A stretch of DNA of 24,000 bases from an uncultured Desulfonema sp. GTDB taxonomy: Bacteria > Desulfobacterota > Desulfobacteria > Desulfobacterales > RPRI01. This document shows, one piece after another, positions 11,724 through 16,821 of this stretch. The notes beneath the pieces are model-generated. The model did no database searches, was not told the DNA's origin, and saw only the letters and a list, made by a program, of their open reading frames with translations. The stretch is from contig CAYODW010000016.1 in assembly GCA_964402865.1 (NCBI GenBank), positions 1 through 24,000 of the forward strand, read 5' to 3'. Positions within the stretch are counted from its first letter, which is position 1. The number at the start of each line of letters is the position of its first letter. Both the position numbers and the translations under genes were made by a program.

Positions 11724-12566
11724 TTATTCTCGGACTTTCTTATGCCGATTCTGGATATAGGCATTCCGCAGACCCTCATAAGGCTCCAAAGCCGCTTTTT
11801 TAAAGGTTTCGTAATCGCCTATCTTAAGAGATGTCTCATTTATTATCCTGTAACCGGTCACTATCAATGACGCCTCAAGAGGTTCAACATATGAAACCGG
11901 TTTTAAAAACCGGTCGCCCGCCATGCCGAAAGTGTCCCGGAGAGTGGAAGGTCCGAGGAATGGCCATACAATATAAATGCCGTTTCCTATACCGTATGTC
12001 GCAAAAGTCTGACCCAGATCTTCATCGCCATTTTTTAATTCAGGATAATTTTTTGCCGGATCATCAAAACCCAGGATGCCTTCAGTGCTGTTTACGACGA
12101 ACCGTGCGAATTCATGACTTGCGGTCTCAAATTTACCCTGAAGCAGGCAGTTTACTAACCGGACCGGCATTCCCAGATTATCAAAAAAATTATGAACACC
12201 GGTCCTTACCATCCTCGGGATTACGGCACGGTACATAGTCGCGACAGGTTTCATAAACCAGAAATAGAGCTTGTCATTGAAATGAAACATGCCCTTGTTC
12301 CAATAATAAAGAGGGTCGGCAATCCTGATGATTTCTTCACCGGTCTCTTCTTTTAAAAAATCTGGGTCGTCATCCAGATACTCCTGATCGGAATAATCCG
12401 ACCCGGTAGCAATCAGGACTTCCGGCAAATGCTCTTTACCTGTCTCAATAATTGATTCAGAACCATATCCCGGCAAAAGAACATCCTGGGAGCTATATGC
12501 TGGTGGAGCCGACATAACGGCAATAAATACAATATAAAAAATAATTGAGGCCTTGAATCTATTCAT
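11724..12566 (-). CDS. mlaA: MlaA/VacJ family outer-membrane lipid-asymmetry protein
   Basis: DPLYYWNKGMFHFNDKLYFWFMKPVATMYRAVIP...VHNFFDNLGMPVRLVNCLLQGK matches the MlaA/VacJ core. The ORF track start (12638) is a TTG inside mlaC. The ATG at 12566 gives MNRFKASIIFYIVFIAVMSAPPAYS, a signal peptide with no lipobox Cys. Confidence 0.8.
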   Translation of the reverse strand: MNRFKASIIFYIVFIAVMSAPPAYSSQDVLLPGYGSESIIETGKEHLPEVLIATGSDYSDQEYLDDDPDFLKEETGEEIIRIADPLYYWNKGMFHFNDKLYFWFMKPVATMYRAVIPRMVRTGVHNFFDNLGMPVRLVNCLLQGKFETASHEFARFVVNSTEGILGFDDPAKNYPELKNGDEDLGQTFATYGIGNGIYIVWPFLGPSTLRDTFGMAGDRFLKPVSYVEPLEASLIVTGYRIINETSLKIGDYETFKKAALEPYEGLRNAYIQNRHKKVRE

Positions 12567-12594
12567 AAATATGACATTACCATATAATAGCAAT

Positions 12595-13209
12595 TTATTT
12601 GATTTCAGCTTTTTGCTGTTCCGCAAGTTTTTTTTCAAGCCGCCCTATGAGTTCGTCGGGAGATTCCTTCGAGAGAATTTCGTTAAACTGGGACCTGTAA
12701 TTCTGAACGAGGCTGATACCTTCGATCTGAACATCATAGACCTTCCAGTTGTTATCCTTCAACCTCATACTGTAATCGACCGAAAACTCGCTTTTTTCTC
12801 TTACTATCTTTGTTTTTACTACCGCCTTGGAATCAGTAACCATCTCCTCTCCGATGTAAACCACTTTTTCATCCCTGTATTCTCCCCGAACCTTTTCATA
12901 ATAAGTATTTCCGAGAATTTCTGAAAAAACCTTGCTGAATTTTATTCTCTGCTGCGGAGAAAACCTCTTCCAGTTACTTGCCAGCGCCCTTCCTGAAAGC
13001 TCCATGAAGTCAAAAGCTTTTCCTGCTATTTCCCATATTTTATCACGCTGAACGTTTTTAAGAGATGGGTTTTTAAACTTGGAGTCTCTCAAAAGGCTGA
13101 TCCCTTCGTCTATCGGGCCTTTAAGCGCATCCATCGGTCCCGTATCAGCACAAAAAAGAAAAGCCGGTGAAAAGGTTATCATAATAAAAAGAATTACAGC
13201 TTTTTTCAC
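12595..13209 (-). CDS. mlaC: MlaC/Ttg2D periplasmic phospholipid-binding protein
   Basis: 204 aa with a signal peptide. FDFMELSGRALASNWKRFSPQQRIKFSKVFSEIL...WKVYDVQIEGISLVQNYRSQF is the typical MlaC pattern. Confidence 0.85.
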   Translation of the reverse strand: MKKAVILFIMITFSPAFLFCADTGPMDALKGPIDEGISLLRDSKFKNPSLKNVQRDKIWEIAGKAFDFMELSGRALASNWKRFSPQQRIKFSKVFSEILGNTYYEKVRGEYRDEKVVYIGEEMVTDSKAVVKTKIVREKSEFSVDYSMRLKDNNWKVYDVQIEGISLVQNYRSQFNEILSKESPDELIGRLEKKLAEQQKAEIK

Positions 13210-13241: not shown

Positions 13242-13685
13242 TTAAATCTTGCCAAAAACATACTTGCTTAACAACTCTTCAAGATCAAGAGCAGACTCAG
13301 TCTCAGTTATCATCTCTCCCGGCTTCAGTAAAGCATCAGAGCCGCCCGGGGAAATCTTTATATATTTGTCTCCGATTATACCGGCGGTCTTAACCGACGC
13401 GATTACATCATCCGTCAGGACAAGCCCCTTCTCTATTTTCATTTTGACTATGGCATTTTTATCCTTATCAAGGGAAATTGACTCAATAGTGCCCACCTTA
13501 ACTCCGGCTATCTCTACAGGAGCACCTTGCTTCAGACCTGAAACAGACTGGAATCTGGCATAAACCGGATAATTGTTATCACCTACCAGCTCCATCTTTC
13601 CAAGCTTAATGGTAAGATAACCCACACAAACGAGCCCGAGCAGAACAAATATTCCAACGTATGTTTCTATTAATGTTTTTTTCAC
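13242..13685 (-). CDS. mlaD: MlaD, an MCE-domain protein
   Basis: 147 aa with an N-terminal TM helix followed by an MCE domain (YARFQSVSGLKQGAPVEIAGVKVGTIESISLD). Confidence 0.85.
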   Translation of the reverse strand: MKKTLIETYVGIFVLLGLVCVGYLTIKLGKMELVGDNNYPVYARFQSVSGLKQGAPVEIAGVKVGTIESISLDKDKNAIVKMKIEKGLVLTDDVIASVKTAGIIGDKYIKISPGGSDALLKPGEMITETESALDLEELLSKYVFGKI

Positions 13686-13700
13686 ATTCCCTCCAACTCA

Positions 13701-14909
13701 TCAGCAGTAACTGAGCTTATATTTCTTGCTTTCCTTAAACTTTGAGCCTGTAATAATCTCTTCAGGACGGTTGCCGGAACCAGCCTCTGCAAATGAGGCG
13801 CTTGCAAACAAACAAAAATCGGGTTTGGGTGCTTTCTCCAGAATATCATTTAAATCAATCATTGATACCAGTCTGTCGCACATTATTTCTGCTTTGTCCC
13901 CGGCTAAACCTGGAAGAAGGATGAGGATGCCCTCATGCCCGTAAAAGAAACAGCTATCAGTGCCTCTTATACAATCATGTGCCTTTGAAACAAAGCTGTT
14001 TAAAATTGCTTTTGAGGCGCCCGTTCCCTGACTCAGTGCTATCTCGTTTAAATTTTCCAGGTGGAGTAGTATAATAGAAAATCCCGTTTGCCCAGGCATT
14101 GCAAAGGCCTGCTCTCCCGAAAGCTTGCCTTTGTGAGTAATCGAAGGAATACAATCTATCTTTTCACTACGGTTTTCCATTCCCTGTATAAATTCTTTTA
14201 TGGCAGGATCTGAAGCCGCAGCCAATTCATCCTTGCTTCCTTCAAAAAGTACGCGGCCATCATTTAACATGGCAACCCGCTGCGAAATATTAAAAATATC
14301 GGGTATGTCATGGCTGATAACAACCCCTGTAAAGCCGAACTTCTGCTGATAATCAGATATCATCCTGTGGACAGCTTTTTTTCGGATAGGATCAAGCCCT
14401 GTTGTAGGCTCATCGAATAGGACTATCTCCGGATCAGTGATTAGCGCTCTTGCAAGGGCCACCCTTTTTTTCATCCCTCCCGAAAGCTGTGAAGGGTACT
14501 TTTCGTCTATCTCATGCAGATCAAGCTGTTCCATTTTATCCCTGACCCGTCTGTTTATCTCCGAATCGGGTAAAGATGTTGTTTCACTGAGCGGAAGGGC
14601 GATGTTTTCATATATTGTTAAAGAATCGAAAAGGGCTGTTCCCTGAAACATGTAACTGCATTTTCTTTTTAGGGCTTTTCTCTCGGCCTTGTTCATGTCC
14701 GAAACAGGGCGACCTTCAAAAAGGATTGCACCCGAATCCTGTTCTAGGAGTCCGATGATATGCTTGAGAAGTACACTTTTCCCTCCCCCGCTTTTTCCAA
14801 TTATCGTTGTTATCTCGCCCTTATAAATGCTGAGATTGGTGCCGGATAGAACATGGTTTTCACCAAAGCTCTTATAAACATCCTTAAATTGAATTAAAGG
14901 CTCTCTCAT
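13701..14909 (-). CDS. mlaF: MlaF-type ABC ATPase fused to a C-terminal degenerate GGDEF-like domain
   Basis: Residues 1-243 form an ABC ATPase: Walker A GKSGGGKS, signature LSGGMKKR, Walker B IVLFDEPTTGLD and H-loop ISHD. Residues of about 270-400 align to the GGDEF fold, with FSIILLHLENLNEI in place of the DxD-FK region. RGTD followed by 5 residues and then GHEGI (nt 13926-13967) stands in place of RxxD-N5-GGDEF. ILILLPG and CLFASASFA match the conserved GGDEF beta strands. Confidence 0.8.
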   Translation of the reverse strand: MREPLIQFKDVYKSFGENHVLSGTNLSIYKGEITTIIGKSGGGKSVLLKHIIGLLEQDSGAILFEGRPVSDMNKAERKALKRKCSYMFQGTALFDSLTIYENIALPLSETTSLPDSEINRRVRDKMEQLDLHEIDEKYPSQLSGGMKKRVALARALITDPEIVLFDEPTTGLDPIRKKAVHRMISDYQQKFGFTGVVISHDIPDIFNISQRVAMLNDGRVLFEGSKDELAAASDPAIKEFIQGMENRSEKIDCIPSITHKGKLSGEQAFAMPGQTGFSIILLHLENLNEIALSQGTGASKAILNSFVSKAHDCIRGTDSCFFYGHEGILILLPGLAGDKAEIMCDRLVSMIDLNDILEKAPKPDFCLFASASFAEAGSGNRPEEIITGSKFKESKKYKLSYC

Positions 14910-14918
14910 AAGTTTTAT

Positions 14919-15719
14919 TTACAGCAGAAAAGATGTTAAAACATAATCTGTTACAAGAATCAGAATACAGGAAATAACAACAGCCGAAGTCGTTGAAATG
15001 CTAACTCCTTTTGCGCCGAAACCATCGGTCCTTGTATGTGTAAAATAGCCCTGGAAACAGCATATCGTTACAATAACAGCCGCAAATACAACCGACTTTA
15101 TAAAACCTCCTGTAACATCCTCCAGCACCACGCTCGTTTCAATACGGGTAAAGTACGCGCCCGGGCTTATTCCTAGCAGAACGGAGCCGGTAAGATACCC
15201 TCCCAGAATACCGACCACGTCAAAAAGGGCGGTAAGTAGAGGCATACTGATTAAAGCGGCAGCCAGCTTTGGACTAACAAGAAAACGGATGGGGTTGATA
15301 TCCATTGTCTCAAGAGCATCGATCTCTTCCGAAATCCTCATTATACCAACTTCAGCAGCCATAGCCGAACCGGCTCTTCCCGTCACCATAATAGCCGCCA
15401 GTACAGGACCAAGTTCCCTTATCAGTGAAAGAGCAACAGCAGCTCCTAAAAATCCGGTTGAACCGAATTTTACGAGTGTATAGTATCCCTGAAGCCCGAG
15501 CACCATTCCGGTAAATGCCCCTGTAAGACATATGACAAAAACCGATTTTGCCCCGATGAAATAAATCTGCTGCATTATTTTATTAAACTGGAAAGGACGG
15601 TAAAATATTAACGCAAAACTCCTGAAAAAGAAAATGGCGATGCGTCCCATCTCCTTTATTATGAAGATTGTTTCCCTCCCAAGACTGGTGAGCGGGTATA
15701 TAAAAGCGGATATGTGCAT
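14919..15719 (-). CDS. mlaE: MlaE ABC permease
   Basis: LTSLGRE...FTGMVLGLQGYYTLVKFG...SLIRELGPVLAAIMVTGRAGSAMAAEVGIMRISEEIDALE is the canonical MlaE core. I chose the internal ATG at 15719 (266 aa, the same size as characterised MlaE). The extra 25 codons in the ORF track overlap a strong promoter-like element. Confidence 0.85.
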   Translation of the reverse strand: MHISAFIYPLTSLGRETIFIIKEMGRIAIFFFRSFALIFYRPFQFNKIMQQIYFIGAKSVFVICLTGAFTGMVLGLQGYYTLVKFGSTGFLGAAVALSLIRELGPVLAAIMVTGRAGSAMAAEVGIMRISEEIDALETMDINPIRFLVSPKLAAALISMPLLTALFDVVGILGGYLTGSVLLGISPGAYFTRIETSVVLEDVTGGFIKSVVFAAVIVTICCFQGYFTHTRTDGFGAKGVSISTTSAVVISCILILVTDYVLTSFLL

Positions 15720-15776
15720 TATAACAACCTTATAACAATTCCAAATTACAATATAAATGAATTTGTTTCTTTTACG

Positions 15777-15804
15777 AATATAATAAAATGGCATAAGGTG
15801 TCAA
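15777..15804 (-). promoter_or_regulatory. Sigma-70-type promoter candidate for the mla operon
   Basis: On the minus strand, TTGACA (15804-15799) is followed by a 16-nt spacer and TATATT (15782-15777). Confidence 0.5.
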
Positions 15805-15948: not shown

Positions 15949-16821
15949 ATGATCACAACACAAGGAGATTCCGTGGGAAATTTTACCGGATATTCAGAAG
16001 GATATTGCAGACACGACGGTCTGAATATTTTTTACCGCCAGTATAAGGCCAGTCCTGAAAAAGCAAGAATGATCATAACCCACGGGCTTGGGGAACACTC
16101 GGGACGGTATTTGAACGTAGTAAACAGCCTTGTCCCTAAAGGCATAAGCATTTTTGCGCCCGATTTCCGCGGACACGGGAAAAGTGACGGGAAACGGGGC
16201 CATGTCCTTTCTTTCGGCGACTATCTTGAAGATCTTTATTCAATATCAGAAGTGGCTCTAAAAGAAAAAAAGCCCGGTATGAAATGCTTTCTCCTTGGGC
16301 ACAGCATGGGCGGTCTTATCGCAATAAATTACACAATCCTCCGGCAGGAGACAATTGACGGGCTGATTATTTCATCCCCCTCTCTCGGAGTGGCTGTAAA
16401 AGTTCCGGCCATAAAAGCTGCTCTGGGGAAAGCAATGTCATTTTTATGGCCGGGCTTGAGCTTGAATAACGAGCTGGATGCTTCAAAGATAAGTCATGAT
16501 AAAAAGGTGGTGGAAGCCTACAGAAATGATCCTCTCGTGCATGATCGCGTTACCGCCCGCTGGTTCACCGAATTTTTATCGGCGATGGAAAATGCCAATA
16601 ATCAGATATCGGAAATTAAAGTGCCTTTCCTGATGCAAATAGCCGGAGATGATCATATTGCTAATGCGGCAGCTTCGAAATCTTTTTTTGAAAGACTCTC
16701 TTCAAAAGACAAAACCCTTCATGTCTATGAAGGACTTTACCATGAAATTTTCAACGAGAAAGAAGAAGACAGAAAGCCGGCGATAGACGACCTTGAAAGC
16801 TGGATCGATTCCCGCATATAA
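15949..16821 (+). CDS. Alpha/beta hydrolase, lysophospholipase / monoacylglycerol-lipase-like
   Basis: 290 aa. HGLGEHSGRY, the nucleophile elbow GHSMGG, a late acidic residue in AGDDH and YHEIFNE (catalytic His) together give the pattern of the PldB/MGL-like hydrolase group. Confidence 0.8.
   Translation: MITTQGDSVGNFTGYSEGYCRHDGLNIFYRQYKASPEKARMIITHGLGEHSGRYLNVVNSLVPKGISIFAPDFRGHGKSDGKRGHVLSFGDYLEDLYSISEVALKEKKPGMKCFLLGHSMGGLIAINYTILRQETIDGLIISSPSLGVAVKVPAIKAALGKAMSFLWPGLSLNNELDASKISHDKKVVEAYRNDPLVHDRVTARWFTEFLSAMENANNQISEIKVPFLMQIAGDDHIANAAASKSFFERLSSKDKTLHVYEGLYHEIFNEKEEDRKPAIDDLESWIDSRI

What the first reader, a model, noticed from the sequence alone, without database searches (positions are those of the whole stretch)
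13701..14909. MlaF ATPase carries a C-terminal degenerate GGDEF domain with an intact I-site, in an mla operon that lacks mlaB
Characterised MlaF proteins are roughly 250-270 aa, whereas this one is 402 aa. After the complete ABC domain (ending near residue 243), the remaining 155 aa or so thread onto the GGDEF fold almost residue for residue. When hand-aligned to the WspR/PleD pattern, the spacing from the first beta strand to RxxD differs by only one residue. The catalytic signature is destroyed: GGDEF becomes GHEGI, and the Mg/GTP-binding DxD and N residues are replaced. The allosteric I-site motif survives as RGTD, exactly five residues upstream of the ex-GGDEF position (nt 13926-13967). 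An inactive A-site with a retained RxxD is the known hallmark of GGDEF domains that act as c-di-GMP receptors rather than cyclases. The operon (mlaE-F-D-C-A) has no STAS-domain mlaB, which in E. coli is the regulatory partner of MlaF. The fused domain may therefore occupy that regulatory niche and couple outer-membrane lipid trafficking to c-di-GMP. I do not know of a described c-di-GMP-gated Mla system.
Basis: partly seen in the sequence, partly recalled or inferred. Interest (0 to 1): 0.7.

Follow-up and report, generated by a model that had tools for sequence, protein, structure and literature searches.

The report
Lipid-transporter ATPase with dead GGDEF domain
The ATPase of an outer-membrane lipid transporter (Mla) in sulfate-reducing Desulfobacterales bacteria carries a conserved, catalytically dead copy of the enzyme domain that normally makes the signal molecule c-di-GMP; it probably acts as a built-in regulator, but whether it senses c-di-GMP is untested.

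Summary
ORF 13701-14909 (-) encodes a 402-aa protein. Residues 1-243 are an intact MlaF-type ABC ATPase. Residues 274-402 are a GGDEF-fold domain with a destroyed catalytic site (GGDEF becomes GHEGI; the Mg and guanine ligands are replaced) and an intact primary I-site (R315-x-x-D318 plus R346). It sits in an mlaE-F-D-C-A operon with no STAS gene nearby.

It is not an artefact. More than 150 distinct homologues of about 403 aa have the same fusion, always in the same operon. All named sources are Desulfobacterales, including the isolates Desulfococcus multivorans and Desulfonema ishimotonii. The extra domain is under purifying selection (dN/dS 0.05-0.38).

The I-site Arg is missing in 27% of members. 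Four cysteines are better conserved than that Arg. The window's clade lacks a secondary-site Arg. MlaB is rare outside Proteobacteria anyway, so its absence says little.

Best reading: a cis-acting regulatory or dimerisation domain under the ATPase dimer, with c-di-GMP as a plausible ligand in the window's clade (about 40%). The family is catalogued in databases (sometimes misnamed "diguanylate cyclase"), but I found no description in the literature. I rate it a new variant of known kinds.

The parts
14919..15794 (-). mlaE (permease). The true start is probably the internal Met at about 15719, because homologues begin MHISA...
   Evidence: Pfam MlaE E = 5e-79; homologue starts seen in L001 and L002
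13701..14909 (-). mlaF-GGDEF* fusion gene, 402 aa plus stop codon
14181..14909 (-). ABC ATPase domain, residues 1-243. All catalytic motifs are intact: Walker A GKSGGGKS, Q89, signature LSGGM, Walker B LFDEP, H200.
   Evidence: Pfam ABC_tran E = 2e-35; these motif residues are invariant in 121 family members; the LSGGM Met is typical of Mla/TGD ATPases (PMC7367683)
14091..14180 (-). Linker, residues 244-273. In most family members this segment carries the GGDEF N-terminal DxLTG motif and helix alpha-A. In the window's clade it is degenerate.
   Evidence: pLDDT below 50; alignment
13704..14090 (-). Catalytically dead GGDEF-fold core, residues 274-402
13926..13967 (-). Residues 315-328, RGTDSCFFYGHEGI: I-site RxxD, a five-residue spacer, then the former GGDEF motif
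   Evidence: gapless alignment to SadC RDGDVLARYGGEEF
13872..13874 (-). Codon for R346, equivalent to PleD R390, the second Arg of the primary I-site
   Evidence: basic residue in 88% of the family
13950..13952 (-). Codon for C320 (D318+2), Cys in 149 of 153 family members
13878..13880 (-). Codon for C344, Cys in 148 of 153 family members
13812..13814 (-). Codon for C366, which co-varies with C402
13704..13706 (-). Codon for C402, the last residue of the protein; co-varies with C366
13242..13685 (-). mlaD (short, single MCE domain)
   Evidence: Pfam MlaD E = 1e-22
12595..13209 (-). mlaC
   Evidence: Pfam MlaC E = 1e-42
11724..12638 (-). mlaA (start codon uncertain)
   Evidence: Pfam MlaA E = 2e-68

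Best explanation
The gene encodes the ATPase subunit of a complete Mla phospholipid-transport system (MlaE, F, D, C, A). In a Desulfobacterales-specific family, this ATPase has replaced the short C-terminal tail of classical MlaF with a catalytically dead GGDEF domain.

Shown here: the ABC motifs are intact; the extension has the GGDEF fold; it cannot make c-di-GMP; the fusion is conserved in more than 150 homologues, always in the same operon; and it is under purifying selection.

Inferred: the domain starts exactly where the ABC core ends, so the two copies should hang beneath the MlaF dimer, as the C-terminal regulatory domains of MetN, ModC, MalK and OpuCA do. There they would control how readily the two ATPase domains close, and so set transporter activity.

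In the window's clade the most likely ligand is c-di-GMP, bound at the retained primary I-site (R315, D318, R346). That would tie outer-membrane lipid trafficking to the c-di-GMP level. Whether binding activates or inhibits cannot be inferred.
For: Identity and reality of the fusion. Fused homologues in two MAGs are syntenic with the window. Twelve metagenome loci carry mlaE-F*-D-C-A. The best 120 hits of a full-length family profile are all about 403 aa with PF00005 + PF00990, and include Desulfococcus multivorans and Desulfonema ishimotonii. Their operons are the same.

Fold. Dead A-site and I-site register.

Selection: dN/dS of the GGDEF part is 0.05-0.38 in eight pairs from three sub-lineages.

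I-site: R315, D318 and R346 are each present in 14 of 14 members of the window's clade. R315 is kept in 73% of the family and about 36 of 48 clusters at 65% identity, even though catalysis, and hence product inhibition, is gone. A basic residue at 346 occurs in 88%. Arg at the position of the secondary I-site (PleD R313) occurs in 97 of 153 members, and the clade that lost R315 also changed it to His.

Precedents (general knowledge plus retrieved papers): degenerate GGDEF domains such as PelD and SgmT bind c-di-GMP through RxxD (PMC3509222, found; PMC3838380). [quoted passage not shown]
Against: No binding data exist.

R315 is absent in 27% of members, and a whole clade shows no constraint at that position while keeping the domain. 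The family's common function therefore cannot depend on RxxD.

Most members have Lys, not Arg, at 346.

The window's clade lacks a secondary-site Arg (F/Y269), and its helix alpha-A region is degenerate. YfiN shows that RxxD alone does not ensure binding.

Four cysteines are better conserved than R315, which points to some other or additional function.

The position of the domain relative to the ATPase dimer was not modelled, because no coordinates or multimer prediction were available.
Confidence: 0.42

Rival explanations
1. Ligand-independent structural module. The dead GGDEF domains simply dimerise under the ATPase domains and stabilise the MlaF2E2 complex. This would do the job that the C-terminal 'handshake' tail and MlaB do in E. 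coli. RxxD would be an inherited remnant.
For: The domain replaces the C-terminal tail exactly at about residue 245. In E. coli the tail and MlaB promote MlaF dimerisation and stability (PMC7367683). The I-site Arg is dispensable in 27% of members, which keep the rest of the domain. No STAS gene lies near any operon.
Against: R315 is retained in about three quarters of lineages, at domain identities of only 25-35% between clades. That is far more than an unconstrained surface Arg should show. It also co-occurs with Arg at the secondary-site position. Most Mla systems work without MlaB or any extra domain.
Confidence: 0.25
2. A sensor for something other than c-di-GMP. One option is a thiol or metal (redox) switch using the conserved cysteines, either as pairs C320/C344 and C366/C402 or as a site bridging the two subunits. 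Another is a different nucleotide bound at the remodelled A-site face.
For: C320 is Cys in 97%, C344 in 97%, C366 in 83% and the C-terminal C402 in 77% of members, against 73% for R315. C366 and C402 co-vary: both present in 118, both absent in 26, C366 alone in 9, C402 alone in 0, with at least 8 independent co-losses. They lie on adjacent strands according to the published sheet order beta2-3-1-6-7. Canonical GGDEF domains have V/L at the C320 position (sequences). The hosts are strict anaerobes. Other family-specific invariant residues, N286 and E375, remain unexplained.
Against: C344 also occurs in ordinary cyclases (SadC, 3ign). Buried cysteines can be plain hydrophobic core residues. Cys-Cys distances were not measured. 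In the window's own clade the C366/C402 pair is eroding: only 8 of 14 members keep all four cysteines.
Confidence: 0.2
3. An active diguanylate cyclase fused to MlaF, as some database names ('diguanylate cyclase') imply.
For: UniRef and NCBI give this name to the Desulfococcus and Desulfonema proteins. The fold is GGDEF.
Against: GG[DE]EF is GHEGI in the window and G-L-N-K-I in the family consensus. The Mg-binding Asp and the guanine-binding Asn and Asp are replaced.
Confidence: 0.01
4. An artefact: a frameshift or assembly fusion of mlaF with a separate GGDEF gene.
For: None found.
Against: More than 150 independent fused sequences come from isolates, MAGs and metagenomes, with lengths of 402-410 aa. 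There is no split homologue, and the extension is under purifying selection.
Confidence: 0.005

Closest known systems
E. coli / A. baumannii MlaF with MlaB (MlaFEDB; PDB 6XGY, 6XBD, 7D06)
   Same: Same ATPase family: E = 4e-51 to 1e-49 over residues 3-245, with the LSGGM signature. It has the same partners MlaE, D, C and A.
   Different: Classical MlaF is 269-276 aa. It has a tail of about 25 residues that 'shakes hands' with the neighbouring MlaF and with the STAS protein MlaB. Here there is no such tail and no MlaB, and a 130-residue GGDEF-fold domain follows the ABC core. The score against the NCBIfam MlaF equivalog model is 194 bits, below the 441-bit cut-off.
Degenerate-GGDEF c-di-GMP receptors (PelD, PopA, SgmT; the GGDEF-like domain of BcsE)
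   Same: A dead A-site combined with a retained RxxD five residues upstream. The window also keeps the equivalent of PleD R390.
   Different: Those receptors are fused to GAF, REC, kinase or other signalling domains and control polysaccharide secretion, the cell cycle or matrix genes. None is part of an ABC ATPase. Binding is unproven here, and RxxD is not universal in the family.
ABC ATPases with C-terminal regulatory domains (MetN C2 domain, ModC, MalK, and the CBS domains of OpuCA/OpuA that bind c-di-AMP)
   Same: An extra domain directly follows the ABC core, in a protein of about 400 aa. This is the expected place for a ligand-controlled brake on closure of the ATPase dimer. OpuA-type ATPases (7AHC, 408 aa) appear among the ABC hits.
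   Different: The extra fold here is GGDEF (palm-like), which I have not seen reported for an ABC ATPase. The transporter is a lipid-trafficking MCE system and not a solute importer.
Active diguanylate cyclases with product inhibition (PleD, WspR, tDGC, SadC, DosC)
   Same: Best structural and sequence matches for the extension. Primary I-site residues are aligned. In most family members an Arg also sits at the secondary-site position.
   Different: There are no catalytic residues, so the I-site cannot be serving feedback inhibition.

Membership tests
MlaF (ATPase of the Mla/MCE ABC transporter) | ABC domain with intact Walker A, Q-loop, signature, Walker B and H-loop | tested here: met
   Pfam ABC_tran E = 2e-35; these motif residues are invariant in 121 family members, including the window
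MlaF (ATPase of the Mla/MCE ABC transporter) | Encoded next to mlaE and mlaD (and here also mlaC and mlaA) | tested here: met
MlaF (ATPase of the Mla/MCE ABC transporter) | Reaches the NCBIfam equivalog cut-off for MlaF (PRK11831) | tested here: not met
   It is the best-scoring model, but at 194 bits against a cut-off of 441. This is a divergent MlaF-type ATPase, not an E. coli-type equivalog.
MlaF (ATPase of the Mla/MCE ABC transporter) | Met in the signature motif (LSGGM), typical of Mla/TGD ATPases | tested here: met
   M146 is invariant in the family; the criterion comes from PMC7367683
E. coli-type MlaFB module | Short C-terminal 'handshake' tail plus the STAS protein MlaB | tested here: not met
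   A GGDEF domain follows residue 245. No STAS domain is present in the window ORFs or in the flanks of 10 other loci. A STAS gene elsewhere in the genome cannot be excluded.
GGDEF domain fold (PF00990) | Significant sequence or structure match to GGDEF domains | tested here: met
   Window alone: 23.3 bits against a gathering cut-off of 23.8 and E = 5.5e-5 to SadC. Family profile: E = 1.7e-19. Foldseek: top 50 matches all GGDEF.
Diguanylate cyclase (active GGDEF enzyme) | GG[DE]EF motif, Mg-binding Asp, and guanine-binding Asn and Asp | tested here: not met
   GHEGI; H283, A291 and K300 occupy the ligand positions; the family consensus is G-L-N-K-I
Degenerate-GGDEF c-di-GMP receptor (PelD/PopA/SgmT type) | RxxD five residues upstream of the former GGDEF motif | tested here: met
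   R315-G-T-D318; 14 of 14 in the window's clade but only 73% of the family
Degenerate-GGDEF c-di-GMP receptor (PelD/PopA/SgmT type) | Additional arginines completing the site: the PleD R390 equivalent, and a second Arg from the secondary I-site or from another domain | tested here: inconclusive
   R346 is present. The secondary-site position is F269 in the window (Arg in 97 of 153 family members). A donor Arg from the ABC domain cannot be assessed without a full-length model.
Degenerate-GGDEF c-di-GMP receptor (PelD/PopA/SgmT type) | Demonstrated c-di-GMP binding | not testable with these tools
   Needs DRaCALA, ITC or MST
ABC ATPase with C-terminal regulatory domain (MetN/ModC/MalK/OpuCA type) | An extra folded domain immediately after the ABC core | tested here: met
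ABC ATPase with C-terminal regulatory domain (MetN/ModC/MalK/OpuCA type) | Ligand-dependent control of ATPase activity or transport | not testable with these tools
   Needs biochemistry

The most novel reading that the evidence does not exclude
The Mla lipid transporter of Desulfobacterales is gated from the cytoplasm by a dead GGDEF domain built into its ATPase. That domain would read c-di-GMP through its I-site and possibly also a thiol or metal signal through its conserved cysteine pairs. This would be the first ABC transporter ATPase that is itself a c-di-GMP receptor, and the first direct link between a second messenger and outer-membrane lipid homeostasis.
Probability: 0.35. Interest if true: 0.75.

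Novelty: new variant of a known kind. Interest (0 to 1): 0.55.

Why it matters
How Mla transport is regulated, and even its direction, is still debated. The only known cytoplasmic regulator is MlaB, and most bacteria lack it.

A conserved family in which the ATPase carries its own sensor-type domain offers a natural experiment on post-translational control of an MCE/ABC lipid transporter. If the domain binds c-di-GMP, it would add a new output (envelope lipid trafficking) and a new receptor architecture (inside an ABC ATPase) to c-di-GMP signalling.

The hypothesis can be tested directly, because members exist in cultured strains (D. multivorans DSM 2059, D. ishimotonii) and the soluble protein can be made recombinantly.

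There is also a practical point for annotation: these proteins should not be called diguanylate cyclases.

Tried and rejected
- Single-sequence AlphaFold of the full protein gave a useless model (pLDDT 39).
- Word-indexed homology searches with the C-terminal domain alone, or with its profile, found only 1 and 9 relatives. The family became visible only through the exhaustive HMMER search and a full-length profile.
A three-sequence sub-alignment worked.
- An exact look-up of the window protein found no record.
- The AFDB fold library was unavailable.
- I could not obtain model coordinates. Cys-Cys distances, I-site geometry and the position of the domain relative to the ATPase or the MlaB-binding surface were therefore not measured.
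- Frameshift or assembly artefact: rejected.
- Active cyclase: rejected.
- The R315 x R346 association is weak (odds ratio 3.2, uncorrected p = 0.025). The R315 x R269 association (odds ratio 11) rests largely on one clade. I use neither as strong evidence.
- Rfam and tRNA scans of the window found nothing.

Full report
**1.

The minus-strand ORF at 13701-14909 encodes 402 aa. Residues 22-170 match Pfam ABC_tran at E = 2e-35. The best NCBIfam model is MlaF (PRK11831), aligned over residues 4-245, although its 194 bits fall well below the equivalog cut-off of 441. Solved MlaF chains are 269-276 aa and align only to residues 3-245. The neighbouring genes are mlaE (14919-15794), mlaD (13242-13685), mlaC (12595-13209) and mlaA (11724-12638). 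All are on the minus strand, separated by 9-32 nt or overlapping.

For this single sequence the Pfam GGDEF match (residues 274-356) is borderline: E = 6e-5, and 23.3 bits against a gathering score of 23.8. Three further tests settle it:
- A profile of 18 family members hits solved diguanylate cyclase domains at E = 1.7e-19, covering positions 12-163 of 168.
- An AlphaFold model of residues 244-402, built on an 83-sequence alignment, has core pLDDT of 80-92 and a beta-alpha-alpha-beta-beta-alpha-beta-alpha-beta order of elements.
- All 50 best Foldseek matches in the PDB are GGDEF domains (DosC, SadC, PleD, WspR and others) at probability 1.00.

A gapless alignment to SadC fixes the motif register:

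| Window residue(s) | Canonical equivalent |
|---|---|
| H283 | Mg-binding Asp |
| A291 | guanine-binding Asn |
| K300 | guanine-binding Asp |
| R315-G-T-D318 | I-site RxxD |
| G324-H-E-G-I328 (five residues after D318) | GGEEF |
| R346 | second Arg of the primary I-site (PleD R390) |

**2. It is a real, conserved family, and it is already in the databases**

An exhaustive HMMER search with the extension alone found about 20 relatives. These were either full-length proteins of about 400 aa or fragments that begin inside the ABC domain.
- Two MAGs (Desulfobacteraceae JBFYVZ010000265 and JAHJJB010000242) encode 403- and 408-aa fusions. The first is syntenic with the window.
- All twelve metagenome loci from a different sub-lineage carry the fusion gene followed by the Mla genes in the same order, mlaE-mlaF*-mlaD-mlaC-mlaA, as far as each contig extends.
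- A full-length family profile returned 7994 ABC hits. The best 120 are all 402-414 aa with precomputed PF00005 + PF00990.
- Members include Desulfococcus multivorans DSM 2059 (EPR38784.1) and Desulfonema ishimotonii (WP_124329746.1, UniProt A0A401G074). Sources name them "ATP-binding cassette domain-containing protein", an Mla ATP-binding protein, or, wrongly, "diguanylate cyclase".
- Their operons are the same, and no STAS gene lies within 8-10 kb on either side.
- A Pfam scan of 29 small unannotated ORFs from the window and five loci also found no STAS domain.
- All named sources belong to Desulfobacterales or Thermodesulfobacteriota.

The extension evolves faster than the ABC part (about 32% against about 65% identity to the window). 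It is nevertheless under purifying selection, with dN/dS of 0.05-0.38 in eight pairs from three sub-lineages. The frameshift or assembly-artefact explanation is excluded.

**3. What is and is not conserved in the dead GGDEF domain**

These figures cover 153 distinct members.

| Position (window numbering) | Conservation |
|---|---|
| D318 | invariant |
| C320 | 97% Cys |
| C344 | 97% Cys |
| 346 | basic in 88% (mostly Lys) |
| C366 | 83% Cys |
| C402 (last residue) | 77% Cys |
| R315 (I-site Arg) | 73% Arg |

The former GGDEF motif is G-L-N-K-I in the family consensus.

R315 is lost in 12 of 48 clusters at 65% identity. One 29-member clade has D/G/S/N/T at that position, which suggests the position is unconstrained there, yet all 29 keep all four cysteines. 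The window's clade (14 sequences) shows the reverse: R315, D318 and R346 are each 14 of 14, but only 8 of 14 keep all four cysteines.

C366 and C402 co-vary strongly. Both are present in 118 members, both absent in 26, C366 alone in 9, and C402 alone in none. At least eight lineages lost both independently. The published GGDEF sheet order, beta2-3-1-6-7 (PMC3838380), places their strands side by side.

The position aligning with the secondary I-site Arg (PleD R313, tDGC R115) is Arg in 97 of 153 members. It is His in the clade that lost R315, and F/Y in the window's clade, where the surrounding helix is degenerate and modelled with low confidence.

**4. Weighing the c-di-GMP reading**

In favour:
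- Catalysis is gone, so product inhibition cannot explain why an Arg is kept at 315 in about three quarters of lineages that share only 25-35% identity in this domain.
- Most of those lineages also keep a basic residue at 346 and an Arg at the secondary-site position.
- The one large clade that lost R315 changed the secondary-site residue as well.
- The window itself has the canonical R-D-R primary site.
- Degenerate GGDEF domains that use RxxD as c-di-GMP receptors are an established class (PelD, PopA, SgmT; PMC3509222, PMC3838380).

Against:
- RxxD is "necessary but not sufficient". YfiN keeps RxxD but lacks the other arginines, and it did not bind c-di-GMP by ITC.
- The window lacks a secondary-site Arg.
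- A quarter of the family lacks R315, so whatever the family has in common does not require the I-site.
- The cysteines are the more conserved feature.

I put c-di-GMP binding by the window protein at about 0.4.

**5. The mlaB argument**

[quoted passage not shown] Absence of mlaB is therefore the default, and an anticorrelation between the fusion and mlaB would be uninformative.

One point does remain. In E. coli the short tail that follows Asp245 and MlaB together promote MlaF dimerisation and stability (PMC7367683). In this family the GGDEF domain starts at exactly that point. A role in holding or positioning the ATPase dimer is therefore plausible on positional grounds, but I could not model it.

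**6. Most likely mechanism**

Shown: an active-looking MlaF ATPase with a dead but selected GGDEF domain fused at the end of the ABC core, in a complete Mla operon.

Inferred: two such domains lie beneath the ATPase dimer, as in MetN, ModC, MalK and OpuCA, and modulate closure of the dimer. In the window's clade the input is most likely c-di-GMP at R315/D318/R346.

Rivals:
- a ligand-independent dimerisation or stability module (about 0.25);
- a sensor of something else, most notably a thiol or metal switch using the C320/C344 and C366/C402 pairs (about 0.2).

These readings are not mutually exclusive.

**7. Novelty**

No paper in the searchable library mentions an MlaF-GGDEF fusion or a c-di-GMP-regulated Mla system. 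A 2023 review of c-di-GMP receptors lists no ABC transporter.

The family is nevertheless already annotated automatically with both Pfam domains. Both ingredients are known kinds: ABC ATPases with C-terminal regulatory domains, and degenerate GGDEF receptors. I therefore rate it a new variant of a known kind, with moderate to high interest. It is directly testable with proteins from cultured strains.

Noticed in passing
window 13950-13952, 13878-13880, 13812-13814, 13704-13706 (codons for C320, C344, C366, C402): Four cysteines in the dead GGDEF domain are better conserved across the family than the I-site Arg. C366 and the very last residue, C402, are gained and lost together (118 both, 26 neither, 9 and 0 alone). 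This may be a disulfide or metal site, and it is unexplained.
   Followed up: partly
window 14103-14105 (codon for F269); family alignment: The position aligning with the secondary I-site Arg of PleD (R313) is Arg in 97 of 153 members. It is His in the clade that lost the RxxD Arg, and F/Y in the window's clade.
   Followed up: partly
P0036 and P0041 (metagenome proteins): A divergent sub-lineage of the fusion has degenerate ABC motifs: Walker A ends in GKR, the signature is LSGEASKS, and Walker B is LFDRP. It is probably an inactive ATPase that still carries the GGDEF-like domain.
   Followed up: no
P0022 (290 aa): The same subtype of dead GGDEF domain (RDFDSC..RYG, and a Cys two residues before the basic residue in the next helix) occurs on a non-ABC N-terminal region. 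This domain subtype is therefore not restricted to MlaF.
   Followed up: no
window 15949-16821 (+); L001 3065-3913; L015-L017; L018: Lipid-related neighbours recur around the operon. A Hydrolase_4 alpha/beta hydrolase (lysophospholipase-like) is transcribed divergently from mlaE in the window and in L001. A PlsC-type acyltransferase (PF01553) follows mlaA in Desulfococcus and Desulfonema. A YhdP-like lipid-transport gene lies nearby in L018.
   Followed up: no
window 14919-15794 (-): The mlaE ORF as listed starts at the first ATG (291 aa). Homologues start at the internal MHISA... Met (266-268 aa), so the real start is probably near 15719.
   Followed up: partly
public records EPR38784.1 and WP_124329746.1 / A0A401G074: UniRef and NCBI name some family members 'diguanylate cyclase' although every catalytic residue is missing. 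This is an annotation error that can propagate.
   Followed up: yes
window 21.7-24.0 kb (+): This GC-richer stretch with no listed ORFs is in fact one long plus-strand ORF (at least 645 aa, with a Cys-rich N-terminal part) that runs off the end of the window. No Rfam family or tRNA was found anywhere in the window.
   Followed up: partly
L015-L017, upstream of mlaE: A hybrid-cluster protein gene (Prismane/hcp) lies just upstream of the mla operon in Desulfococcus and in Desulfonema ishimotonii, followed in Desulfococcus by a flavodoxin gene. Given the conserved cysteines, a possible link to redox or nitrosative stress is worth a look. It may be coincidence.
   Followed up: no
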